The position numbers and the translations under genes were made by a program. The notes under the pieces are model-generated. The model ran no database searches and was not told the DNA's origin. It worked only from the letters and a program-made list of their open reading frames with translations. From NCBI GenBank assembly GCA_963826115.1, contig CAWGVS010000010.1:384001-448000 (forward strand): DNA of 64,000 bases. The letters are read 5' to 3'. Of the stretch, positions 50,561 through 63,998 are shown piece by piece. Numbering within the stretch: the stretch's first letter is position 1; the number at the start of each line of letters is the position of its first letter. The DNA comes from an uncultured Candidatus Rokubacteria bacterium. GTDB taxonomy: Bacteria > Methylomirabilota > Methylomirabilia > Rokubacteriales > DASRDR01.

Positions 50561-50760
50561 CGGGGTCGCCTCCTCGCCCGCGATGACATCCGCCCTCTCG
50601 GACGGACCGCTCAGGCTGCCTCGTACGACCAAAGTCGTATGGACCACCCCGATCCCGGGACCGATACTGAGGCCGCCTGGGGTATCGCTCGAGAGTGGGC
50701 AGCCAGGTGTACGTTGAAGGTTCCACCGCCCGGCGTGACGGGGGTGAAGGGAGACGAGAG

Positions 50761-53218
50761 ATGGATGACCCCGTGATGAGGCCGAGCGAGCCGCGCCTGC
50801 CCGTGACGCGTCCGGAGCCGCCCGCGGTCGGGCTGATGAGCCGACGAGCGGCGCTGGGCGGGCTGATCGTCCTCGCGTGGGAGGCGCGGGCGCTGGCCCA
50901 GACCCCGCCGGGGGGCGCGAGCCCGCCGATGTCCGCCGCGGACGCCCTGGCGGCGCGCGGCGCGCCGACCCCGGCGGACTGGCCCCGGGTGGTGAAGACG
51001 GGCGACACCACGATCGAGTACTACCTGCCCCAGCTCGACTCCTGGGACGGCCGCCGCCTCGAGACGCACAGCGCGGTCAGCATCCAGACCTCGGCGAAGG
51101 CGCCGCCCGTGTTCGGCGTCGCCGTCGTCGTGGCCGACACCCAGGTGGACAAGGGCGCGCGCCAGGTGACCCTCGAGAACGTCCGGATCGAGAAGGTGAC
51201 GTTCCCCTCGGCGACGGCCCAGGAGGCGGCCTACCAGAAGCTCCTGCAGCAGAGCATCCCCGCCAAGGTCCGCACGATCGAGCTGGACCGGCTGGAGACC
51301 GCGCTGTCGATGAGCGAGCAGAAGGAGAAGGGCGAGTCGAAGCCCCTCAAGAACGACCCGCCGAAGATCGTGTTCTCGACGACGCCGGCCATCCTCGTCC
51401 TGATCGATGGCGCGCCGGTGTACCGGCCGGTCCCGGGGAGCACCAGCTACACGCGGGTCGTGAACACGCGTCCGCTCATCCTGAAGGACACGGGCGGGAA
51501 GCACTTCCTCCGGCTCTTTGACGGGTGGATGACCGCCACCGCCTTCACGGGACCATGGACCGTCGCCCCCACCGTGCCCGGGGGCGAGCTCGACAAGCTG
51601 GTCCAGAATCTGTCGAAGACGCAGTCCCTGGACCTCCTCGACTTCGTGGACCCGAAGGACCCGAAGAGCCGGCCGACCCTGGCGAAGGGCCCGGTCCCCA
51701 CGGTCGTGGTGGCGACCGAGCCCACCGAGCTGATCGTGACGCAGGGGGAGCCGAACTACTCGCCCATCGACGGCACCCAGCTCCTCTACGCGTCGAACAC
51801 GACCGGCCACGTCTTCAAGCACCTCGGCGACCAGCGGACCTACGTGCTGGTGACCGGGCGCTGGTTCCGCGCGGAGGCGCTTGCGGGTCCGTGGACGTTC
51901 GTTCCCGGCAAGGACCTCCCGCCGGACTTCGCGAAGATCCCCGACGAGAGCCCGAAGGAGAACGTGAAGGCGTCGGTGCCCGGCACTCCGCAGGCCGGAG
52001 AGGCCGTGATCGCGAACAGCCTGCCCGAGACGGCGGCGATCAAGATCAGCGAGGCGAAGCTTCCGGTGCCGAAGTACGACGGACCGCCCCAGCTCAAGCC
52101 GATCGAGGGCACGCCGCTGTCCTACGTCGTGAACAGCCCGCTGCCGGTGATCCACGTCCCGCCGGACCAGTACTACGCCCTCCAGAACGGGGTCTGGTTC
52201 GTCGCCCCGTCGCCCCAGGGACCGTGGAAGGTCGCGACCACCGTGCCCCCGGTCATCTACTCGATCCCGCCGAGCTCGCCGCTGCACTACGTCACCTACG
52301 TCTACGTGTACCGGGCGACGCCCCAGGTGGTGTACGTCGGCTACACGCCGGGGTACTACAGCGTCTACGTGTCCGACGGCGTCGTGGTCTACGGCACCGG
52401 CTACTCGTACGTGTCGTGGGACGGCACCGTCTGGTACGGCACGCCGGTCACCTACGGGTTCGCGACCGCTCCGACCTACACGCCGTGGACCGGCTGGGTC
52501 ATGGGCTTCGGCTTCGGGCTCGCGTTCGGTGCCGCGACGGCCGGCTGGGGCTGGGGCTCCTACCCCTGGTGGGGTCCCTATCACTATGGTTACGGCTCCG
52601 GCCGGGCCGTCGGGCCGTACGGCGCCGCGGCGTGGGGTCCCGGTGGCTGGGCCGCGACCACCGGGAACGTCTACAGCCGGTGGGGCGACACCGCTGCGGT
52701 CACCCGCCACTCGGCGGGCTACAACGCGTGGACGGGGAACGCATGGGCGGGCGGCGCGGGGATGTCCTACAACTCGCGGACCGGCACCGTCGCGGCCGGC
52801 CAGCGGGGCGTCGTCAGCAACGCCTACACCGGCAACTACGCCTACGGGGGGCGCGGCGCCGCGGTGAACCCGAACACGGGGCAAGCGGTGTCGGCGCGGA
52901 CGCGTGACGGCGGGGAACGCCTACTCCGGCCAGGCCGGCTCGGCCGGCTACGTCCGGGGGGAGCAGGGCGGTGTGGCCCGAGTCGGCAACGACGTCTACG
53001 CCACCCGCGACGGCTCGGTCTACCGCAACACGGGCAGCGGCTGGCAGCAGAACAGCGGCAGCGGCTGGGGCAACGTGAGCGAGCCGGCGCGCACGCAGTC
53101 GCTCAACAACGAGGCCCAGGCCCGCTCGAGCGGCCAGACCCGCGTCAACAACTACCAGGCATCGGGCGGATACCGCGGCGGGGGCGGCGCTCGCGGGGGC
53201 GGCGGCCGACGGCGGTAA
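50761..53218 (+). CDS. large exported protein with Tyr/Gly/Trp-rich C-terminus, +1 frameshift at ~52895
   Basis: Twin-arginine-like signal (SRRAALGG); Y.L.TGRWFR....GPW repeats; YVGYTPGY; ends RGGGGRRR in ORF 52904. Confidence 0.75.
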
Positions 53219-53382
53219 CGCGCGTCGGCGCCGGCGCGTCGTTCGACCGCGGCGACGGCTCGATGGTACGCCATGGGGCGTTTGCCCCGTCGCGCCGCGG
53301 CCGTGACTCGATCGCGGGGAGTCACACAACCAGCGGGCAATGGTCCCGGCGAGGAGACCGGCCCGGGACAGGGGAAATCGCG

Positions 53383-53839
53383 ATGGGACGGATCGTCGGA
53401 GTCCTGGCGCTCCTCGCAGCCTATCGGCCGGATGCGCGACGCCGGGCGGGATCCCGATGCCGCAGGCCGACGTGGACGCGGTCAACCAGGCCGTCGAGGC
53501 GCACCGGGCGGCGTTCAACGCGCGCAACCTCGACGCGCTGCTCCTGGGCATCGCGGACGACGCCAGGGTCGTGTCGCTGCCCGCGTTCGGCACCGGACGC
53601 GGAGCGGGCGACGGCCAGGTGACGAAGGTCCAGTACCGGGAGGACATGACGGCCCTGATGGCGCGCGGCGACGGACGCTGCTCGAGCACGCCCGGTGGAC
53701 CGTGGAGTTCGCGGATGCGACCCACGCGACGGCCAAGGGGCAGGGCCAGCTCGGCGAGAGCCGCGGCGACTTCCAGTACAAGCTCGAGAAACGGCAGGGC
53801 CGCTGGGTGATCGTCGAGTCCACGGTGAAGCGGAAGTAG
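53383..53839 (+). pseudogene. NTF2/SnoaL-like lipoprotein broken by two frameshifts
   Basis: Signal plus GCAT lipobox, AFNARNLDALL, and KRQGRWVI lie in three different frames. Confidence 0.55.
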
Positions 53840-55563: not shown

Positions 55564-55956
55564 CTAGCGAGGCGCGCCCGCCGCGGGCTTCAGCACGAGG
55601 AAGTCGGCCACGCCGATCAGGCGCAGGATGAGGCGGACGGGCCAGGGCACCATCCGCCGGGACGGGTCGTGGACCACCTCGGGGTGGACCAGGCGGACGT
55701 GCCGGCCGCGCGTCTCCACGACGCATGCGCCGGCCGCCAGGACGTTCTTCACCCACTCGCTGTCGCGCCCGTAGGTCAATGCGATCGCGTAGCCCAGGCC
55801 CTGCGCAAAGATGTTCACCGGCGTGCGCCGCACCCGGCCGCTCGTCCGGCCGACGTGGGTCACCATGGCGAAGCCGGGCGCCCACCACGCGATGTGCCGC
55901 AGGATGGGATTGGTCAGGATCAGGTTGAGTCGGGCGACGGCCCTGGGAATCGGCAT
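55564..55956 (-). CDS. deazaflavin (F420)-dependent nitroreductase family protein
   Basis: H.GR.SGR.RRTPV, YG..S.WVKNVLA.G. Confidence 0.8.
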   Translation of the reverse strand: MPIPRAVARLNLILTNPILRHIAWWAPGFAMVTHVGRTSGRVRRTPVNIFAQGLGYAIALTYGRDSEWVKNVLAAGACVVETRGRHVRLVHPEVVHDPSRRMVPWPVRLILRLIGVADFLVLKPAAGAPR

Positions 55957-56055
55957 CGCAGCTCCAAGGTACGCCGGCTCGGCGGCTCGCCGCGAGCGCT
56001 CGAGGCGCTGTGATATGGTGAGGCGGGCGCACGTCAGGACGCCCGGGAAGAGGCC

Positions 56056-56415
56056 ATGGTGGCGGAGCGCTTCATCATGAACGCCGGTCGGACGACCAAG
56101 CAGGGGCAGCAGGTCAACGCCGGCAAGGACTCCCCGGAGTATCGGGCGATCGTGAGCACCCTGACCATGCACCCCGAGGACATGCGGACGGTCGGCGTCG
56201 CCGCCGGCGGCTCCGTCCGGGTGCGCACGCCCCACGGCGAGGCGGTCTTCCAGTGCGTCGAGGGGAAGGTCCCCGCGGGGATGATCTTCGTCCCCTACGG
56301 CCCGCCCACCTGCCGGCTGATGGGCGGCGAGACCGACGGGACCGGCATGCCGACGTCCAAGGGCTGGGAGGTCGAGGTCGAGGCCATCGGGCCCGACGGC
56401 CCGGCCTCGGCGTAG
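56056..56415 (+). CDS. fwdD: formylmethanofuran dehydrogenase subunit D (molybdopterin dinucleotide-binding)
   Basis: GRT..QG...GK.S.EY, M.PEDM, G..V.V....G, G.IF.PYGP, T.GTGMP..KG. Confidence 0.88.
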   Translation: MVAERFIMNAGRTTKQGQQVNAGKDSPEYRAIVSTLTMHPEDMRTVGVAAGGSVRVRTPHGEAVFQCVEGKVPAGMIFVPYGPPTCRLMGGETDGTGMPTSKGWEVEVEAIGPDGPASA

Positions 56416-56448
56416 ACCGTCTCGCGACGCGGGATCGGGGAGCGCACG

Positions 56449-56607
56449 ATGGCAGAGCGGTTCGAAGAAACAAGGATGGGGGAGCGGGACGCCGCGCGGC
56501 CCGACGCTCCGGCCGGCGGCCACACCCCGGCCTGGGAGCTGGTCGAGCCCGGGCGCTACCGACCCCTCCGGATCCGGGGGAGCTTCCCCGGCCGCGAGCT
56601 CGGCTGA
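56449..56607 (+). CDS. possible 52-aa small protein inside the fwd operon
   Basis: ATG with GGGGAG RBS; MAERFEETRMGERD...WELVEPGRYRPLRIRGSFPGRELG*. Confidence 0.35.
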   Translation: MAERFEETRMGERDAARPDAPAGGHTPAWELVEPGRYRPLRIRGSFPGRELG

Positions 56608-56663
56608 ACGTTCGCGGTGCCGCCCGGTCCGGGGCGGCCAGACGAGGCGGAAGCGGGAGACCG

Positions 56664-57998
56664 ATGACCGTCACGGTCGTGAAGAACGCGACGTGCACCT
56701 TCTGCGGGTGCGTCTGCGACGACATCGAGCTCCACGCCGATGGCACGCGGATCCTCAAGAGCAAGAACGCCTGCAGCCTCGGCGACGCCTGGTTCCAGAA
56801 CCACACGGCCGAGCGCCTGTACCCCGACGCGCTGGTGGACGGGAAGCCCGCGACGCTCGACGCCGCGGTGGAGGCGGCCGCGAGCTTCCTCCACGCCGCG
56901 GACATGCCGCTCGTCTACGGCCTCAGCAACATCACCTGCGAGGCCCAGCGGGAGGCGGTGGCGATCGCCGAGCTGATCGGCGGCGTGATCGACAGCCACA
57001 CCTCCCTCTGACACGGCCCCACTGAGATAGCCGCCCAGTTGGGGGGCAAGGTGACGTGCACGCTGGGGGAAGTGAAGAACCGGGCGGACCTCATCATCTA
57101 CTGGGGCGGTAATCCGGCCGAGTGCCACCCGCGGCACTTCACGAAGTACACGCTGACCCAGAAGGGGAAGTACGTCCCGCAGGGCCGGAAGGGCCGCTAC
57201 ATGGTCCTGGTCGACATCCGCGAGACGCCCAGCGCGCGCGCGGCCGACCTGTTCCTCCAGATCCGGCCCGGCAAGGACTTCGAGGTCGTCACCACGCTCC
57301 TGGCGCTCGTGAAGGGCCGCCCGGTGGACGCCGAGCGCGTCGCCGAGACTGGCATGACGGTCGAACAGCTCCAGGACCTCGCGGACCGGATGAAGCGCGC
57401 CCGCTTCGGCGTCCTGTTCTTCGGGATGGGCCTGTCGATGACGCGGGGGAAGCACATGAACTCCGCGTCGGTCCTGACCCTGGTCACGGCGCTGAACGCC
57501 TACACGAAGTTCGTCGCCATGCCGATGCGGGGCCACGGCAACGTGACCGGCGCCGACATGGTGATCCGCTGGACGACGGGCTACCCGTTCGGCGTCAACC
57601 TGGCCCGCGGCTACCCCCGCTTCAATCCCGGCGAGTTCTCGACCGTGGACCTCCTCGTCCGCGGCGACAACGACGCCGCGCTCATCCTGGGGGCCGATCC
57701 GGGCGCCACGATGCCCCAGCCCGGCATCGAGCACCTGCGCCGCATCCCGACGATCGTCCTCGACCCGAAGGTGACCCACACCAGCCGCATGGCGCGCGTG
57801 CACATCACGACCGCCGCCACCGGCATCAGCGCGCCCGGCACCGTGTACCGCATGGACGAGGTGCCGCTCCCGCTCCGGCCCGCCCTCAGCTCCCCGTACC
57901 CGACCGACGAGGAGGTCCTGCGCCGCATCCGCCGGGCCGTCGCGGCGAAGCCGGCCTGGACGCCGGCGGCGTCGAACGGTCGACCGCGCTCCGCCTGA
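56664..57998 (+). CDS. fwdB: formylmethanofuran dehydrogenase subunit B, selenocysteine-containing (TGA 57009-57011, codon 116), 444 aa
   Basis: CTFCGCVCDD...C [4Fe-4S] motif; DSHTSL-U-HGP...TCTLGEVKNRAD; WG.NP...HPRH; MRGHGNV; the two ORF halves are in the same frame. Confidence 0.9.
57012..57053 (+). promoter_or_regulatory. candidate bacterial SECIS hairpin
   Basis: CCCCACTG (57017-24) pairs with CAGT-T-GGGG (57036-44); outer CAC/GTG pair; rare ACT, ATA and TTG codons cluster here. Confidence 0.6.
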
Positions 57999-58003
57999 CC
58001 GCG

Positions 58004-59638
58004 ATGCTCCGCATCACCGGCGGGAAGGTCTACGATCCCGCCAACGGCGTGGACGGCGAAGTCCGGGACGTCGCCATCGCGGATGGCCGGATCGTGTCCC
58101 ACGTCGAGGGCGGGCGGACGATCGACGCGACGGGCATGGTCGTCGTCCCCGGTGGCGTCGACGCCCACACCCACGTGGCCGGCGCCGCGCTCAACTTCGC
58201 GCGCGCCATGACCCCGGAAACCCAGCGGCAGGCGCTTCCGTTCCTCCACACGCCGGAGCGGCGGATGGGGCTCGGCGGCCTCACGCCCACGACCTTCGCC
58301 ACCGGGTACCTCTACGCCGGCATGGGCTACACGACGGTCACCGAGGCCGCGGTGCCGGTGCTCACCGCCAAGCACACGCACGAGGAGCTCCGCGACACGC
58401 CGATCCTCGACAAGGCGTGCCTGCTCCTCATGGCCAACAACGAGATCGTGATGGACCTCCTGGAGGCCGGGGAGACGGAGCGCGCCGGTCACGTCGTGGC
58501 CTGGCTCATCTGGGCCGCCAAGACGTACGGCGTGAAGGCGGTCAACCCGGGCGGCGTGGCGGCCTGGAAGTGGGGCGGGAACGCGAAGGGGCTCACCGAT
58601 CCGATCGAGGGCTACCGCACCGTGACCCCGGCCCGGATCATCGAGAGCCTGGCGGATATCATCGACGGCCTCGGGCTCCCGCACCCGCTCCACCTTCACT
58701 GCAACGCGCTCGGCATGCCGGGCAACGTCGCGACCACGCTCGAGACCATGCGGATATTGGAGGGCCGCCGGGCCCACCTGGCGCACCTCCAGTTCCACGC
58801 GTACGGCGGCGACGACTGGGCCACGATGCGCTCGGAGGCGCCGGCGGTCGCCGAGTACTTCAACGCGCACCCGGGCTTCACGGCCGACGCCGGCGCGATC
58901 CTGTTCGGGAACGCCATGACGATCACCGCCGACGGGCCCTGGCAGCACCTGCTCCACGAGCTGACCGGGCGCAAGTGGGGCAACATCGACGTCGAGAACG
59001 AGACGGGGTGCGGCATCGTGCCGTACGTCTACAAGAAGCGCAGCCTCGTCAACGCGGTGCAGTGGGCGACGGGGCTCGAGCTCCTGCTGCTCGTCACCGA
59101 CCCCTGGCGGATCTTCCTGACCACCGACCATCCGAACGGAGCCGGCTTCTGGCGCTACGCGGAGATCGTCCAGCTCCTGACGGACGTGGACTACCGCCGG
59201 GAGCGGGTGAAGAGCCTGCCGACCAAGGCGCTCAAGCGGATCGTGCTCCCGGAGCTCGACCGCCGGTACACGCTGTCGGAGATCGTGACCATCACCTCCG
59301 CGGGGCCGGCGCGGGCTCTCGGCCTCTCGCGGAAGGGGCATCTCGGCGTCGGCGCGGACGCGGACGTGGCGATCTACTCCGAGCGCGCGGGCGTCGTGGC
59401 GATGTTCCAGTCGCCCCGCTACGTCCTGAAGGGCGGCGAGATCGTCGTCGAGGAGGGCCAGGTCCGGGCGGTGACCGAGGGCCGCGAGTTCGTCGTCCGG
59501 CCCGCCTTCGATCCCGGCATCGAGGACTACCTCCGGCCGGTGTTCCAGCAGTCCTACACCATGTCCTTCGACAACTACCCGGTCGAGGCCGAACGCGTCC
59601 ACGGCATGGAGCTGGCCGAGTGCCGGCCCCGCGCGTGA
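58004..59638 (+). CDS. fwdA: formylmethanofuran dehydrogenase subunit A (amidohydrolase)
   Basis: VYDP.NG, D.HTH.AG, YA.MGYTT, K.VNPGG, HLHCN.LG.PGN, H.QFH.YG, E.ETGCG, TTDHPNG. Confidence 0.95.
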   Translation: MLRITGGKVYDPANGVDGEVRDVAIADGRIVSHVEGGRTIDATGMVVVPGGVDAHTHVAGAALNFARAMTPETQRQALPFLHTPERRMGLGGLTPTTFATGYLYAGMGYTTVTEAAVPVLTAKHTHEELRDTPILDKACLLLMANNEIVMDLLEAGETERAGHVVAWLIWAAKTYGVKAVNPGGVAAWKWGGNAKGLTDPIEGYRTVTPARIIESLADIIDGLGLPHPLHLHCNALGMPGNVATTLETMRILEGRRAHLAHLQFHAYGGDDWATMRSEAPAVAEYFNAHPGFTADAGAILFGNAMTITADGPWQHLLHELTGRKWGNIDVENETGCGIVPYVYKKRSLVNAVQWATGLELLLLVTDPWRIFLTTDHPNGAGFWRYAEIVQLLTDVDYRRERVKSLPTKALKRIVLPELDRRYTLSEIVTITSAGPARALGLSRKGHLGVGADADVAIYSERAGVVAMFQSPRYVLKGGEIVVEEGQVRAVTEGREFVVRPAFDPGIEDYLRPVFQQSYTMSFDNYPVEAERVHGMELAECRPRA

Positions 59639-59645
59639 CCCCCGC

Positions 59646-60455
59646 ATGATCACGCTGACGCTCACGCGGCCGCCGACCGTGCCCCTCGAGGCGGAGAGCA
59701 TCTCGCCGGACGTCATGGCGCCGCTCTCCCACGACGCGATCCGAGCCCTGCCGGTGCTCCTGGGGAAGCGGCAGCGCCGTCTCGACGACTTCTTCGCGGT
59801 CGAGGGCGTGGCGAGCGACGAGCTCCTGATCCGGGGCGACCTCGGGCGGGTCAAGTGGATCGGCCGGGGCATGACGCGCGGCCGCATCGCCATCGAGGGC
59901 AACGCGGGCATGCACCTCGGGGCCTCCATGCGGGGCGGGACGATCGAGGTCCGCGGCAACGTGTCCGACTGGCTGGGCGCCGAGATGTCGGGTGGGCTCA
60001 TCCGGGTCCGCGGCAACGCCGGCGGCCAGGTGGGGGCCGCCTATCGCGGCAGCCCCCGAGGGATGAACCAGGGGACGATCCTGATCGAGGGCTCGGCGGG
60101 CATCGAGCTGGGGATGCGGATGCGGCGCGGCGTCATCGCCGTCGCCGGTCCCGTGCGCGACTTCGCCGGGCTCCAGATGAAGGGCGGGACGATCTTCCTG
60201 CTGGGCGGGGCGGAGATCCGGACCGGCGCCTGGATGAGCCGCGGCACGATCGTCTCCATGAAGCCGCTCCACCTCCTGCCGACGTTCACCTACGCCTGCA
60301 CATATCAGCCCACGTTCCTGCGCCTCTACGCGCGACATCTCGAGACCCTCGGGTTGCCCATTCCCGCCGATTCCGGGGATGGGTCCTACCAGCGCTACAC
60401 GGGGGACACGTCGGGCCTGGGCAAGGGCGAGATCTTGGTGTGGGAGGCGCGGTAA
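59646..60455 (+). CDS. fwdC: formylmethanofuran dehydrogenase subunit C
   Basis: EAE.ISPD, repeated G..M.GG.I.V.GN beta-helix units, LLPTF.Y, GD....GKGEI. Confidence 0.93.
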   Translation: MITLTLTRPPTVPLEAESISPDVMAPLSHDAIRALPVLLGKRQRRLDDFFAVEGVASDELLIRGDLGRVKWIGRGMTRGRIAIEGNAGMHLGASMRGGTIEVRGNVSDWLGAEMSGGLIRVRGNAGGQVGAAYRGSPRGMNQGTILIEGSAGIELGMRMRRGVIAVAGPVRDFAGLQMKGGTIFLLGGAEIRTGAWMSRGTIVSMKPLHLLPTFTYACTYQPTFLRLYARHLETLGLPIPADSGDGSYQRYTGDTSGLGKGEILVWEAR

Positions 60456-60590: not shown

Positions 60591-61460
60591 ATGCCTCTCC
60601 GCGTAACGAAGCCAGAGCTGGAGTTGGACGTCCCGAAGGGCGCCTCCGCCGTTCCCCACACGGTGGTCAGCTTCCGGGACCTGATTCCGGCCGTCCAGGA
60701 GGACGAGCTCGCCGTCGAGGAGCCGCTCGAGATCCGGCTGGGCGGTACGAGTCTCGCCGTGACCATGCGGACGCCCGGGCACGACGAGGAGCTCGTCGCG
60801 GGCCTGCTGCTCTCTGAGCGCGTGATCGAGGGCCCCGCCGACATCGACGTGATCGCCCACTACACCGGACCGGACGACGATCCCCGGGTCGGGAACGTGA
60901 TCAACGTCCTCCTGAACCGTCCCGGCCCCGCGATCCACCAGCGCCTCCACCGGAGCTTTTTCACGTCCTCCGCCTGCGGCCTCTGCGGCAAGACCTCGCT
61001 GGACGCGATCGACTTGGACTTCCAGCCCGTTGCCGGCGACGTCACGGTGTCCCTCGACGCGCTCTACACGCTCGTCCCCGCGCTGACCGCGGTGCAGGCG
61101 ACCTTCGAGCGGACGGGTGGCCTCCACGCGGCCGCGCTCTTCGACTCCACCGGGCAGCTCCTGGCGGTGCGGGAGGACGTGGGGCGGCACAACGCCGTCG
61201 ACAAGGTCGTCGGCCACATGCTGCTGACGGGCGGCCTGCCCCTCGACCGGCACATCCTGATGGTGAGCGGACGGGCGAGCTTCGAGATCATGCAGAAGGC
61301 GCTGGTGGCGCGGATCCCTGTCGTGGCCGCCATCTCGGCGCCGTCGAGCCTGGCGGTCCAGCTGGCGCTCGCCAACGGCGTGACCCTCATCGGCTTTCTG
61401 CGCCCCGGGCGGCTCAACGTGTACGCGAATTCCCACCGGCTCCGGCCGGAGCCTGCGTGA
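60591..61460 (+). CDS. fdhD: formate dehydrogenase accessory sulfurtransferase
   Basis: VEEPLEI, TMRTPG.D.EL, SACGLCG, TGG.HAA, EDVGRHNA.DK, SAPSSLA. Confidence 0.95.
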   Translation: MPLRVTKPELELDVPKGASAVPHTVVSFRDLIPAVQEDELAVEEPLEIRLGGTSLAVTMRTPGHDEELVAGLLLSERVIEGPADIDVIAHYTGPDDDPRVGNVINVLLNRPGPAIHQRLHRSFFTSSACGLCGKTSLDAIDLDFQPVAGDVTVSLDALYTLVPALTAVQATFERTGGLHAAALFDSTGQLLAVREDVGRHNAVDKVVGHMLLTGGLPLDRHILMVSGRASFEIMQKALVARIPVVAAISAPSSLAVQLALANGVTLIGFLRPGRLNVYANSHRLRPEPA

Positions 61461-61498: not shown

Positions 61499-61684
61499 TT
61501 ACGACGGAGTGGCGCCCTGGCGAAGGCGGTCGATGAGCGCCGTCACCTCTTCGAGGCGCGCGCGCACCTCCCGCTCGGACTCGCGTATCTCCTCCAGCGA
61601 AGACCGGTTCTGAACCGCGTCCTCGTACGCGGTCACGGCCACACCGAACACCCTCAGGAGGCGGCGGGTCTCGTCGCTGGGCAT
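61499..61684 (-). CDS. small helical hypothetical protein (61 aa)
   Basis: MPSDETRRLLRVFGVAVTAYED...; GAAGGAAGG RBS; overlaps the AOR 3' end. Confidence 0.55.
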   Translation of the reverse strand: MPSDETRRLLRVFGVAVTAYEDAVQNRSSLEEIRESEREVRARLEEVTALIDRLRQGATPS

Positions 61685-63501
61685 CGATGTCCTTCCTTCT
61701 CGGCCGCGGGAATTCCGAGCTCGGTGGCCTTCCATTGGGGAACGAACCCGTGTTCGTCCCACTGCCTCGCCTCGTAGTAGCCGCCCACCATCTCGCGTAG
61801 CTCGTCTCGAGACAACCCGATGCCGGCGGCGACCCCGGTCGGCAGCGATTCGCTCAGCAATCGCTCGGGCAGCCAGTCGTCCTCGGGTTGCCAGCGCTCT
61901 CGGATGTTGAAGAGCTTCTTCAGCGTGTGGATGCGTTCGCCCGCGCGACGTAACTCCGCGCCCGTGTAGTCCCAGCCCGTCACTGCGGCGAGCATCTCCG
62001 CGGCTTCCGCGTAGAAGTCGGTGAAGCACTTCCGCAGAAACTTGCAGACGATCAGCGAGTCCAGCACCGCGGCGAAGTCTTCCGACGCCGCGACCAGGGT
62101 GCCCCGGCTCGCGTCACCGCGGAATCGATCCACCTCGCCGGAAAAGTCGGCTTCGTACGCGCCCGACCGGTTGTGACAGGCGCCGCGCGGGCTGACGGCC
62201 AGGCCCAGCGCCATGGTCTTCAGGCTTCGCGGGTCGTACCCCGGAAGCTCGAGACCCTTCACCTGCATCGCCCAGTAGCCACTGTCCCGGCCGGTCTCGA
62301 TCGCGGCGCGTTTCGATCCCTCGGCCAGGAGATCGCCCACGCCTTCCCGATTGGCAATCGCGCCGATCGTGGCCAGGACCGCTTCGCCGTGGCCGAAGCG
62401 CAATCCGAGCGCCTCCGCCTCGGGCAGCACTCCCTTCTGGACGCTCTCGATCGCCCATGCGAGCGTGCCGCCGGTGCTGATCGTATCGAGACCATAGCGA
62501 TCGCAGAGACGAGCCGCGGCGAGCACGACCTCGGGATCGCTGATGCCGCAGAGCGGCCCGAGCGCAAACAAGGTCTCGTACTCGAGCCTCTGTTCTTCGC
62601 CGCCGCGCGACGCGAAGAGCCGCTCGCAGCGAATCGAGCAAGATGCGCAGCCGTGCCGGCGGCTGAAGCTCGTTTCGGTCAGCGACTCCCCGGTCAGGGC
62701 ATCGGCCTCTTCGAAGGTGGCCTGCTGGAAGTTGCGCGTGGGCAGCGTGCCGAGGCGGTTGAACACCGCCAGGTTGGCGACGGTCCCGACGAGCCGGTAC
62801 TTGGCGGTCACCGCGCCGAGGCTGCGGCGTCGCAGCGACTCGGCGATGGCGCTCACCTGTCGGGGATCCGCGACCAACGTGGCCCGGTCGCCGGACACTG
62901 CGATGGCCTTCAGGTTCTTGGACCCCATCACTGCGCCGACGCCGCCCCGGCCGGCATGGCGACCCTCGTTGCTGATGGTGGCGAAGCGGACCCGGTTCTC
63001 GCCGGCGCTGCCAATGGACGCCACCCACGCGCCCCGGCACCCCCCGTCGGAGCGGATGAACGATTGCGTCTCCTCCGGGGTCTTCCCCCTCAGCTGGTCG
63101 GCCGCTCGAATCTCGACCTCCTCGCCACGGATGAACAGGTAGACCAAGGACGGCGCCTGGCCGGTGATCACCAGAGCATCGATGCCGAGCCGCTTCAGCT
63201 CCAGGGCGAAGTGGCTCGACGAGAGCGAGTCCGCGATGAATCCGGTCAACGGCGACTTGGTGACGACCGCGAACTTCGCCGTCGTGGTGAGACCGGTTCC
63301 GACCAGGGGTGCGGTTGCGAAGATCAGGGGGTTGTCGGCTGACAGTGGATCGACTCCCGGGGGCGCATAGTCGTGGAGCAGGCTCACCCCAAGGCCTATG
63401 CCGCCCATGTACATGCGCAGCCGCGACTCTTCCAGGTCGTGGTGCGCGCTACGCCCGCTCGTCAGATCGATGTGCAGGACGCGGCCGGAAAAGCCGTGCA
63501 C
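61654..63501 (-). CDS. aor: aldehyde:ferredoxin oxidoreductase family (tungstopterin) enzyme
   Basis: G..GR.L.IDL, KSPLTG, GRGG.GAVMGSKNLKAI, CASCSIRC, EYET, CD.YGLDTIS, YDPR, RGACH; GTG start. Confidence 0.92.
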   Translation of the reverse strand: MHGFSGRVLHIDLTSGRSAHHDLEESRLRMYMGGIGLGVSLLHDYAPPGVDPLSADNPLIFATAPLVGTGLTTTAKFAVVTKSPLTGFIADSLSSSHFALELKRLGIDALVITGQAPSLVYLFIRGEEVEIRAADQLRGKTPEETQSFIRSDGGCRGAWVASIGSAGENRVRFATISNEGRHAGRGGVGAVMGSKNLKAIAVSGDRATLVADPRQVSAIAESLRRRSLGAVTAKYRLVGTVANLAVFNRLGTLPTRNFQQATFEEADALTGESLTETSFSRRHGCASCSIRCERLFASRGGEEQRLEYETLFALGPLCGISDPEVVLAAARLCDRYGLDTISTGGTLAWAIESVQKGVLPEAEALGLRFGHGEAVLATIGAIANREGVGDLLAEGSKRAAIETGRDSGYWAMQVKGLELPGYDPRSLKTMALGLAVSPRGACHNRSGAYEADFSGEVDRFRGDASRGTLVAASEDFAAVLDSLIVCKFLRKCFTDFYAEAAEMLAAVTGWDYTGAELRRAGERIHTLKKLFNIRERWQPEDDWLPERLLSESLPTGVAAGIGLSRDELREMVGGYYEARQWDEHGFVPQWKATELGIPAAEKEGHRCPATRPAAS

Positions 63502-63503
63502 CG

Positions 63504-63998
63504 CTAGCCCCCCGCGTCCGCCGAGAGTATGACGATGTTGTCTCCCGGATTGACGGTGACCGTCGGCGTGCGGATGAAGTCCAGGCCGTTCACGTTGCAC
63601 GCAAAGCCGTCGATGAGGCGAGCCCGATCGGGGGCGATGACCCTGCCAACCAACACCGGCAGCTCGGCGGCGAGCGCCGCATAGACCTCGGAGAACGTCG
63701 CCCCCGCGGGCAGGCTGAGCGACACCTCCCTGGTGTGGGCCAGGAAGCGCGCAGCGCCGAACAGCTCGACGGTGCACTGAATCGTGGCATCCGAGCGCAG
63801 GCCGGGTGATCGGCGCGCCTGGCTCCAGCGCCTCTGCGCCTCTGCGTAGTCCTCCGGCGTGTTCATGTTGAAGAAGCTCGAACCGTCGGGGTCGAAGCGG
63901 CGAATCTCCTCCTCGTCGACCCTGCGGGTGCGAACGCGATCGAACAGATAGACGGGCCTCAGCTGCCCGCGCGCGAGGAGCTCCGCGAGGTGCGGTAG
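63504..63998 (-). CDS. MobA-like nucleotidyltransferase C-terminus fused to a MoaD/ThiS domain (5' end outside the window)
   Basis: Open frame from the window end: ...FDPDGSSFFNMNTPEDY (MobA C-terminal motif), then VELFG.AR...NVNG...ILSADAGG. Confidence 0.78.
   Translation of the reverse strand, partial: LPHLAELLARGQLRPVYLFDRVRTRRVDEEEIRRFDPDGSSFFNMNTPEDYAEAQRRWSQARRSPGLRSDATIQCTVELFGAARFLAHTREVSLSLPAGATFSEVYAALAAELPVLVGRVIAPDRARLIDGFACNVNGLDFIRTPTVTVNPGDNIVILSADAGG

What the first reader, a model, noticed from the sequence alone, without database searches (positions are those of the whole stretch)
56664..57998. Hidden selenoprotein: FwdB with an in-frame UGA at the metal-ligand position
Seen: ORFs 56253-57011 and 57039-57998 share one frame and are separated only by TGA at 57009-57011, reading DSHTSL*HGPTEIAAQLGGKVTCTLGEVKNRAD. 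Established: methanogen FwdB/FmdB has S-x-C-H-G-P here, the Cys ligates W/Mo, and the FwuB isoform of Methanococcus and Methanopyrus has selenocysteine at this site. Inference: UGA is recoded as Sec, giving one 444-aa protein that gene callers would split. It is a substitution at exactly the catalytic codon, unlike the indels elsewhere in the window.
Basis: partly seen in the sequence, partly recalled or inferred. Interest (0 to 1): 0.95.

Follow-up and report, generated by a model that had tools for sequence, protein, structure and literature searches.

The report
Selenocysteine FwdB in a soil bacterium
The stop codon inside this gene very probably encodes selenocysteine at the metal-binding site of a bacterial formylmethanofuran dehydrogenase, a known kind of enzyme that databases routinely cut in two, and a small gene just upstream appears to carry a second, undescribed selenocysteine codon.

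Summary
Window 56664-57998 (+) is one 444-codon frame with a single in-frame TGA at 57009-57011. Read through, it is a full-length FwdB, and the TGA falls on the W/Mo-ligand Cys of solved FwdB structures. The host is a bacterium of a Candidatus Rokubacteria genus (72% GC), not a methanogen.

The genome holds selA, selB, tRNA-Sec and selD, and no second fwdB. TGA stands at this codon in 79 of the 80 closest species-level homologues from eight phyla; the other has TGC. A hairpin 18 nt downstream (57030-57047) shows almost no synonymous change. I conclude that the TGA is decoded as Sec through a SECIS inside the reading frame.

This is not new in kind. A Sec fmdB in a planctomycete was printed in 2016, and reviews list FwdB as a selenoprotein family of bacteria and archaea. 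The nearest 120 database entries are all truncated fragments of 310-318 aa.

The likely new item is a small ORF between fwdD and fwdB (56449-56667). It has its own in-frame TGA (56605-56607) in all 79 loci that hold it. A covarying hairpin lies 11 nt downstream, and coding-type conservation continues past the TGA. It matches no family model, and I found no description of it.

The parts
56056..56415 (+). fwdD (molybdopterin-dinucleotide-binding subunit), 119 aa
   Evidence: PF01568, E 3e-12. NF042908 FwdD, E 3.7e-23, below that model's archaeal cut-off. Found upstream of fwdB in 74 of 80 related loci.
56449..56667 (+). Small ORF, 72 codons if its internal TGA is read as Sec. Its terminal TGA (56665-56667) overlaps the fwdB ATG as ATGA.
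   Evidence: The motif WExIExGRYxPRRIRGSxxGRELG-TGA-TFxxPPGxG is present in 79 of 80 related loci. No Pfam or NCBIfam hit at E up to 10.
56605..56607 (+). In-frame TGA of the small ORF, a candidate second Sec codon (U53)
   Evidence: TGA in 79 of the 79 loci that hold the ORF, whereas the terminal stops are TGA 47, TAA 20 and TAG 12. Period-3 conservation continues for four codons after it, and Phe at +2 is invariant with TTC/TTT synonyms. One database homologue has C at this site and reads on.
56619..56638 (+). SECIS-like hairpin of the small ORF (GCCGCCC / loop GGUCCG / GGGCGGC), 11 nt after the TGA
   Evidence: ViennaRNA fold. Covariation: 25 cells changed on both sides against 5.0 +/- 1.9 in shuffles (0 of 500), and 4 of 6 pairs have compensatory changes.
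56664..57998 (+). fwdB, 444 aa with Sec116, ending in an ordinary TGA stop
57009..57011 (+). Sec codon (TGA) at the W/Mo-ligand position, followed by His-Gly-Pro
57030..57047 (+). fwdB SECIS hairpin (GCCGCCC / AGUU / GGGGGGC), 18 nt after the TGA. The window copy has an internal G.G mismatch.
   Evidence: RNAalifold finds this helix on its own. 98.4% of 497 cells are paired, against 29-57% when the partners are slid. Codons +7 to +10 show almost no synonymous change.
58004..59638 (+). fwdA (amidohydrolase subunit)
   Evidence: TIGR03121, 679 bits against a cut-off of 393.
59646..60455 (+). fwdC
   Evidence: TIGR03122, 262 bits against a cut-off of 131.
60591..61460 (+). fdhD (sulfurtransferase that matures the Mo/W cofactor)
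   Evidence: NF001943, 290 bits against a cut-off of 269.

Best explanation
fwdB of this Rokubacteria-type bacterium encodes one 444-residue selenoprotein.

How it most likely works: UGA at 57009-57011 is decoded as selenocysteine by SelB carrying Sec-tRNA(Sec). SelB is recruited by a hairpin in the coding sequence 18 nt downstream (57030-57047). Sec116 takes the place of the Cys that ligates tungsten or molybdenum in archaeal FwdB. With FwdD, FwdA and FwdC the product forms a redox-active formylmethanofuran dehydrogenase. This enzyme links the H4MPT C1 pathway (ftr and mch are in the genome) to CO2.

Shown here: the codon, its alignment with the ligand Cys, its conservation, the RNA constraint, the Sec machinery and the operon. 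Inferred: actual Sec insertion, which metal is bound, and the direction of catalysis.
For: - Family and site. The full-length match to TIGR03129 is 502.5 bits against a cut-off of 327.8. The best solved relatives are FwdB chains at E 1e-112 to 1e-95, and the TGA lies on their C (or X) of S-V-C-H-G-P. By the coordinates it lies on residue 118 of 5t5i_B.
- Fe-S motif. C11, C14, C18 and C37 are invariant in 32 sequences.
- Sec machinery. selA scores 576 bits, selB 348 bits and selD 393 bits, all over their cut-offs; tRNA-Sec(tca) lies beside selAB.
- Single copy. It is the only fwdB in a genome that is 99% complete, while ftr and mch are present.
- Conservation of the codon. TGA stands here in 79 of the 80 closest species-level homologues; the other one has TGC. 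The phyla, by record title, are Planctomycetota 45, Acidobacteriota 23, Rokubacteria 4 and five others. TGA also stands here in the 6 same-genus orthologues whose locus I read.
- Sec/Cys pairs. Cys-type homologues of 63-66% identity carry TGC or TGT.
- RNA constraint. Among 81 sequences, codons +9 and +10 are CAG and TTG in 81 of 81, and +7 and +8 are GCC in 76 and 77. GGA, the one Gly codon that would break a pair, occurs 0 times at +11. Other Ala and Leu codons nearby have synonymous entropy of 1.1-2.2 bits.
- Independent fold. RNAalifold predicts the same helix.
- No code change. fwdB itself ends in an ordinary TGA.
Against: - There is no direct evidence of Se incorporation.
- The hairpin shows no change on both sides of any pair (0 of 7 pairs). 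Its support is structure-preserving one-sided changes plus suppressed synonymous variation.
- In the window copy one internal pair is G.G.
- The fold of the single sequence is not more stable than shuffles (z = -0.70).
- No Rfam SECIS family matched.
- The 18-nt spacer is longer than in the same genome's fdhA and selD (10 and 12 nt).
- The read evidence is from contigs, and only 40 of 160 difference rows were shown.
Confidence: 0.93

Rival explanations
1. The TGA is a true stop. The cell makes a 115-aa Fe-S piece and a separate C-terminal piece of about 315 aa (from TTG 57039 or a nearby start). Together they form a ligand-less, non-redox enzyme like the Fhc hydrolase of methylotrophs.
For: Gene callers produce exactly these pieces: the nearest 120 database entries are 310-318 aa. 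Fhc-type complexes without a metal ligand exist (6s6y_B).
Against: - The nine codons between the TGA and TTG 57039 (HGPTEIAAQ) are conserved in frame in 80 of 80 homologues, including the catalytic-site His-Gly-Pro.
- The protein resembles archaeal FwdB (E 1e-112) far more than FhcB (E 2e-14 over residues 57-152).
- fwdD and fdhD, which serve a pterin cofactor, are kept.
- The codon is always TGA and never TAA or TAG.
Confidence: 0.03
2. The TGA is an assembly or sequencing error, or the gene is a recent pseudogene.
For: I did not check these. The relatives' record titles suggest long-read metagenome bins.
Against: - The same TGA is found in 79 of 80 independently assembled species-level genomes and in the 6 same-genus orthologues I read.
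- Both halves are under purifying selection: mean column identity is 84%, with many invariant residues.
- Independent contigs from two soil-metagenome runs bridge the site, and no difference is listed there.
Confidence: 0.01
3. UGA is read through with an ordinary amino acid: Cys carried on tRNA(Sec), or Trp or Gly by near-cognate decoding or a changed genetic code.
For: One database caller translated the upstream small ORF's TGA as W (P0027). This shows that some pipelines assume such codes.
Against: - TGA ends fwdB and the read-through frame of the small ORF in this window, so the code is standard.
- A complete Sec system is present, and selD and an fdhA-like gene also carry in-frame TGA with hairpins.
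- The RNA constraint sits where a SelB site is expected.
Confidence: 0.03

Closest known systems
Sec-encoding fmdB of the planctomycete 'P2' (Rhodopirellula) and two unclassified bacteria (PMC4807772, 2016; passages read)
   Same: It is a bacterial FwdB/FmdB with Sec at the ligand site. It has the same fmdD-fmdB-fmdA-fmdC operon order. Some organisms hold both Sec and Cys forms, as G004 does here.
   Different: The host phylum differs (Rokubacteria genus). In the passages I read, that paper describes neither the in-frame SECIS hairpin nor the small upstream ORF. Its supplementary selenoprotein table could not be opened.
Archaeal selenium-dependent formylmethanofuran dehydrogenase (FwuB of Methanopyrus kandleri; Vorholt 1997, as cited in PMC13188914 and PMC4807772) and solved FwdB structures (5t5i_B, 8rja_B, 9sfi_Q)
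   Same: Same family (TIGR03129), the same U/C-H-G-P ligand motif and the same N-terminal Fe-S Cys motif.
   Different: From recall, archaea place the SECIS in the untranslated region. Here the element lies inside the reading frame, directly after the UGA, as in bacteria. No polyferredoxin subunit gene (fwdF or fwdG) stands between fwdD and fdhD; I did not search the rest of the window for those families.
FhcB of the formyltransferase/hydrolase complex of methylotrophs (6s6y_B)
   Same: A distant homologue in a bacterial H4MPT pathway.
   Different: The match is weak (E 1.9e-14, residues 57-152 only). The window protein keeps the Fe-S motif, the ligand position, fwdD and fdhD. It is therefore not an Fhc-type protein.
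Bacterial Sec formate dehydrogenases (FdhA/FdhF) with SelB-type SECIS
   Same: Same enzyme superfamily and the same U-H-x-P motif (PMC13188914, Table 1). The hairpin lies just after the UGA. The genome's own fdhA-like gene has TGA, a 10-nt spacer and a hairpin with loop GGUCU.
   Different: The fwdB hairpin lies 18 nt after the UGA and has an AGUU loop. The substrate is formyl-methanofuran/CO2 rather than free formate.
For the small ORF: VhuU, the very small Sec-containing hydrogenase subunit of Methanococcus (family row in PMC13188914 Table 1; its small size is recalled), and selenium control of fdhF(Sec) by translational uncoupling in Treponema primitia (PMC3892789; only the search listing and the start of the abstract were seen)
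   Same: These are precedents for the two readings. One is a tiny selenopeptide acting as a metalloenzyme subunit. The other is a Sec codon acting as a selenium gauge for expression downstream.
   Different: There is no sequence likeness to either. Neither precedent is a separate ORF upstream of a selenoprotein gene.

Membership tests
FwdB/FmdB, formylmethanofuran dehydrogenase subunit B (TIGR03129) | Full-length match above the curated cut-off | tested here: met
   502.5 bits against 327.8, residues 8-425 on profile positions 1-420 of 421.
FwdB/FmdB, formylmethanofuran dehydrogenase subunit B (TIGR03129) | Metal-ligand Cys or Sec followed by His-Gly-Pro | tested here: met
   The TGA aligns with C of SVCHGPS (8rja_B) and X of SVXHGPS (9sfi_Q). 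By coordinates it falls on chain position 118 of 5t5i_B. That Cys118 is the tungsten ligand is recalled, not shown by a call.
FwdB/FmdB, formylmethanofuran dehydrogenase subunit B (TIGR03129) | N-terminal [4Fe-4S] Cys motif | tested here: met
   C11, C14, C18 and C37 are invariant in 32 sequences and aligned with the PDB chains.
FwdB/FmdB, formylmethanofuran dehydrogenase subunit B (TIGR03129) | Encoded with the FwdA, FwdC and FwdD subunits | tested here: met
   fwdD, fwdA and fwdC lie in one operon, followed by fdhD. In 80 related loci tblastn found fwdD in 74, fwdA in 66 and fwdC in 53; the misses are limited by flank length.
FwdB/FmdB, formylmethanofuran dehydrogenase subunit B (TIGR03129) | Bound W- or Mo-bis-pterin cofactor and formyl-MFR dehydrogenase activity | not testable with these tools
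   This needs purified enzyme.
Bacterial SelB/SECIS-dependent selenoprotein | In-frame TGA at a position where homologues have Cys | tested here: met
   TGC in L056, L024 and L028; TGT in L025 and L026.
Bacterial SelB/SECIS-dependent selenoprotein | Conserved hairpin shortly downstream of the UGA with a G in the loop (the spacing rule of 16-37 nt to the loop is recalled from the bSECISearch model) | tested here: met
   Helix 57030-57047 with loop AGUU, 25 nt from the UGA to the loop. Synonymous variation is suppressed at codons +7 to +10. No compensatory double changes were seen.
Bacterial SelB/SECIS-dependent selenoprotein | selA, selB, selC and selD in the genome | tested here: met
Bacterial SelB/SECIS-dependent selenoprotein | Selenium in the polypeptide | not testable with these tools
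   This needs 75Se labelling or mass spectrometry.
FhcB (non-redox formyltransferase/hydrolase complex) | Close likeness to FhcB, with loss of the ligand and the Fe-S motif | tested here: not met
   6s6y_B matches at only E 1.9e-14 over residues 57-152. The Fe-S motif and the ligand codon are kept.
Small upstream ORF read as a selenoprotein | In-frame TGA, a hairpin at SECIS spacing, coding conservation beyond the TGA, and a Cys homologue | tested here: inconclusive
   The first three features are met. Only one homologue has C at the site (P0028), and I could not see its DNA.

The most novel reading that the evidence does not exclude
The small ORF between fwdD and fwdB (56449-56667) is an undescribed selenoprotein family of about 60-80 aa. 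Its conserved motif is WExIExGRYxPRRIRGSxxGRELG-U-TFxxPP. It occurs only beside Sec-type fwdB, in at least eight phyla.

It could be a tiny Sec-bearing subunit or assembly factor of the enzyme. Alternatively it could be a selenium-gauging leader ORF: read-through ends at or near the fwdB start (an ATGA overlap in the window), so fwdB expression would be coupled to the supply of Sec-tRNA.
Probability: 0.55. Interest if true: 0.7.

Novelty: new member of a known kind. Interest (0 to 1): 0.45.

Why it matters
The fwdB codon shows that soil Rokubacteria carry a redox-competent, selenium-dependent formylmethanofuran dehydrogenase. So do many Acidobacteriota, Planctomycetota and other phyla. This is not the ligand-less Fhc hydrolase of classical methylotrophs. 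It ties their C1 metabolism to selenium and to tungsten or molybdenum.

Public protein collections hold the enzyme almost only as fragments: all 120 nearest entries are truncated. Pathway reconstructions and selenoproteome counts for these phyla will therefore be wrong until the gene is read through.

If the upstream small ORF is confirmed, it would add a selenoprotein family that Sec/Cys-pair searches miss, because nearly all its members carry TGA. It could also reveal either a new small subunit or a new way of matching selenoprotein synthesis to selenium supply.

Tried and rejected
- Rfam at E up to 10 over 56500-57500 found no SECIS family, only a chance miRNA match. I do not count this against the reading, because Rfam holds few bacterial SECIS models (recalled).
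- The fold of the 67 nt after the fwdB TGA was no more stable than shuffles (z = -0.70). The comparative analysis replaced it.
- No H4MPT-pathway genes were found among the flanking ORFs I scanned (glycosyl hydrolase, aminotransferase, ABC transporter parts, HAD hydrolase). ftr and mch lie on another contig.
- Literature searches, passage searches in BSepDB and the deep-Sep paper, and Table 1 of PMC13188914 (119 families) gave no description of the small ORF. The groundwater-MAG selenoproteome study that the review cites (its ref 66) did not appear among the 10 papers listed, and I made no other attempt to reach it. The supplementary selenoprotein table of PMC4807772 is closed. Either could hold the small ORF.
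- The RNA contig of run X15 (record 13, 57002-57315) starts only 7 nt before the TGA. It does not bridge the codon and does not show transcription of this organism's gene.
- Habitat was not inferred from the low-share runs.

Full report
**Observation.** Window 56664-57998 on the + strand is one reading frame. It starts at an ATG with a GGGAG a few bases upstream and is interrupted once, by TGA at 57009-57011. It ends in another TGA at 57996-57998. The local text is DSHTSL*HGPTEIAAQLGGK, as reported.

**What the protein is.** Read through, the 444-residue product matches NCBIfam TIGR03129 (FwdB) over its whole length, with 502.5 bits against a cut-off of 327.8. Its best solved relatives are archaeal FwdB chains: 9sfi_Q E 5e-112, 8rja_B 7e-110 and 5t5i_B 9e-105.
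- In those alignments the TGA falls on the C of S-V-C-H-G-P in 8rja_B, and on an X at the same place in 9sfi_Q.
- The N-terminal 115 residues alone align to 5t5i_B with query 5-114 on chain 3-116. This puts the TGA on chain residue 118. That Cys118 is the tungsten ligand is my recollection of the structure paper, not a call result.
- The Fe-S motif C11-x2-C14-x3-C18...C37 is invariant in 32 aligned sequences.
- The methylotroph FhcB (6s6y_B) matches only weakly, at E 2e-14. This is a true Fwd-type protein, not an Fhc-type one.
- The neighbours are fwdD (56056-56415), fwdA (58004-59638), fwdC (59646-60455) and fdhD (60591-61460).

**Organism and Sec machinery.** The genome has 6.24 Mb in 12 contigs, 72% GC and 99% completeness.
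- Its same-genus relatives carry record titles 'uncultured Candidatus Rokubacteria bacterium'. For example, L048 covers the same coordinates as G013. The host is a bacterium.
- selA (C8:83339-84706, 576 bits) and selB (C8:81424-83304, 348 bits) are adjacent. A tRNA-Sec(tca) lies at C8:85942-86039. selD is on C5 and itself contains one in-frame TGA.
- An fdhA-like gene on C10 also has TGA-His.
- The window gene is the only fwdB in the genome. ftr and mch are present on C3. The pathway therefore needs this gene to be whole.

**Conservation.**
- Among 41 genomes of the order (own genome included), Sec-type orthologues of 89-93% identity with the TGA were found in seven other genomes of the same genus. 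Cys-type homologues of 63-66% identity were found in four genomes. One genome (G004) has both. G019's listed '1 TGA' lies elsewhere; its ligand codon is TGC.
- Across GTDB species representatives, the 80 best loci (of 424 confirmed) have TGA at this codon in 79 cases and TGC in one, L056.
- By record title these rows are Planctomycetota 45, Acidobacteriota 23, Rokubacteria 4 and Gemmatimonadota 2, with one each of Binatota, Actinomycetota, Myxococcota and Pseudomonadota. Bins can hold foreign contigs, so the single rows are weak.
- A FastTree of 84 rows was built from the window, 79 of the 80 loci (one failed my motif filter) and 4 Cys-type rows used as outgroup. It puts all Sec-type rows in one clade (support 99) with short branches. 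Rokubacteria form one clade (99) and the phyla are mostly clustered.
- The Sec type of this genus is closer to those of other phyla than to the Cys type of its own genus. This suggests past transfer of the operon. That is an inference only: I ran no root test or topology test.

**SECIS of fwdB.** RNAalifold on 72 distinct 54-nt stretches predicts one helix, columns 22-28 with 33-39. In the window this is 57030-57047: GCCGCCC, loop AGUU, GGGGGGC.
- 98.4% of 497 cells pair, against 29-57% when the partners are slid.
- No pair changes on both sides. The variation is one-sided and keeps pairing (G-C to G-U), apart from 8 unpaired cells.
- The stronger evidence is codon-level. In 81 sequences, codons +7 to +10 are GCC (76), GCC (77), CAG (81) and TTG (81). 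Gly +11 is never GGA. Flanking Ala, Leu and Gly codons vary freely, with entropy of 1.0-2.2 bits.
- TTG for Leu and ATA for Ile in a 72% GC genome point the same way.
- Points against: the single-sequence fold is unremarkable, there was no Rfam hit, and the window copy has an internal G.G.

**Reads.** The best-scoring DNA run (X1, plant metagenome) covers the codon only by bin depth: none of its listed pieces spans it. Contigs from two soil-metagenome runs do bridge it (X2 record 16, X6 record 26). No difference is listed there, but only 40 of 160 difference rows were shown.

[quoted passage not shown] It gives the operon order fmdD-fmdB-fmdA-fmdC and notes that Sec and Cys forms can coexist. 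[quoted passage not shown] The latter also mentions a Methylomirabilota MAG with 63 predicted selenoprotein genes. The kind is therefore known, and this is a new member. The annotation gap is real, however: the 120 best of 6358 database relatives of the C-terminal ORF are all 310-318 aa, many of them named FwdB by JGI.

**The small ORF (outside the given coordinates).** Between fwdD and fwdB lies an ORF of 52 codons (56449-56607) that ends in TGA.
- The motif with this TGA is present in 79 of 80 related loci; L056, the one Cys-type member of the clade, lacks it. It is also present in 6 of 6 same-genus Sec-type loci, and in none of the 4 Cys-type loci.
- The internal stop is TGA in 79 of 79. 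The ORFs' final stops are TGA 47, TAA 20 and TAG 12.
- After the TGA the frame continues with T-F-(V/I/A)-(V/I/M)-P-P-G. Entropy at third codon positions stays high while first and second positions stay conserved, and Phe at +2 is invariant with TTC/TTT synonyms (79 sequences, L107 left out because of a 3-nt insertion).
- A hairpin follows 11 nt after the TGA (56619-56638, loop GGUCCG). It has real covariation: 4 of 6 pairs have compensatory changes, and 25 cells are changed on both sides against 5.0 +/- 1.9 in shuffles (0 of 500). Some of these changes alter the encoded residues, for example PPGSGG to PSGSDG.
- Its spacing and loop resemble the genome's own fdhA element (10 nt, loop GGUCU).
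- In the window the read-through frame (72 codons) ends in a TGA that overlaps the fwdB ATG. In one search the commonest spacing between the read-through stop and the first Cys codon of fwdB was 26 nt, which is what the window's ATGA overlap gives; I did not inspect the junction in each of those loci. The other stops mostly lie within about 100 nt upstream of fwdB.
- The ORF has no Pfam or NCBIfam match at E up to 10 and is single-copy in the genome.
- Its database relatives are unnamed or 'hypothetical' proteins of about 50-65 aa.
- A profile search of 1.84 billion representatives gave 214 hits. Of the 150 listed, 148 stop at the residue before the TGA. One shows W at the site, which looks like a code-4-style call. 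One (P0028, from NCBI) shows C and reads on. I could not see the DNA of P0028.
- I read this as a probable second Sec codon (about 0.8). Whether the product is a small subunit or a selenium-gauging leader is open.

**Verdict.** It is a new member of a known kind, in a bacterium rather than a methanogen. The upstream small ORF is the part that deserves follow-up.

Noticed in passing
window 56449-56667 (+): A small ORF between fwdD and fwdB has its own conserved in-frame TGA (56605-56607) and a covarying SECIS-like hairpin (56619-56638). Coding-type conservation continues past the TGA. It occurs in 79 of 80 Sec-type fwdB loci and in none of 4 Cys-type loci, and it matches no family model.
   Followed up: yes
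own genome C5:561687-562604 (L011) and C10:502796-503311 (L131), outside the window: selD and an fdhA-like molybdoenzyme each carry one in-frame TGA, followed by a hairpin 12 and 10 nt downstream (loops AGGAU and GGUCU). The genome therefore has at least three or four selenoprotein genes.
   Followed up: partly
L056 (Gemmataceae record), around 3346: This is the only Cys (TGC) member inside the Sec-type clade. It still keeps the hairpin sequence, and neither fwdD nor the small ORF was found upstream of it. It looks like a recent Sec-to-Cys change in a rearranged locus.
   Followed up: partly
G004 (same genus): C5:1609655-1610950 and C18:618117-619446: This genome holds both a Cys-type and a Sec-type fwdB. 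In that assembly the Sec-type copy is matched in two overlapping pieces, which suggests a frameshift.
   Followed up: no
window 55564-56523 (-): A long minus-strand ORF matches F420H2-dependent quinone reductase (PF04075, E 3e-6) near its C-terminus. Its 5' part overlaps fwdD on the other strand, so the real gene is probably much shorter.
   Followed up: no
window 63504-63866 (-): A ThiS/MoaD-family small protein (PF02597, E 4e-5) lies close to fdhD. It may belong to molybdopterin synthesis.
   Followed up: no
window 61500-63500: No ORF in this stretch shows the high third-position GC typical of this genome's genes, and the long ORFs there gave no Pfam match. The content of this stretch is unresolved.
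   Followed up: no
window 50695-53622 (+): A 975-aa ORF with coding-like GC3 has no Pfam match at E 0.001.
   Followed up: no
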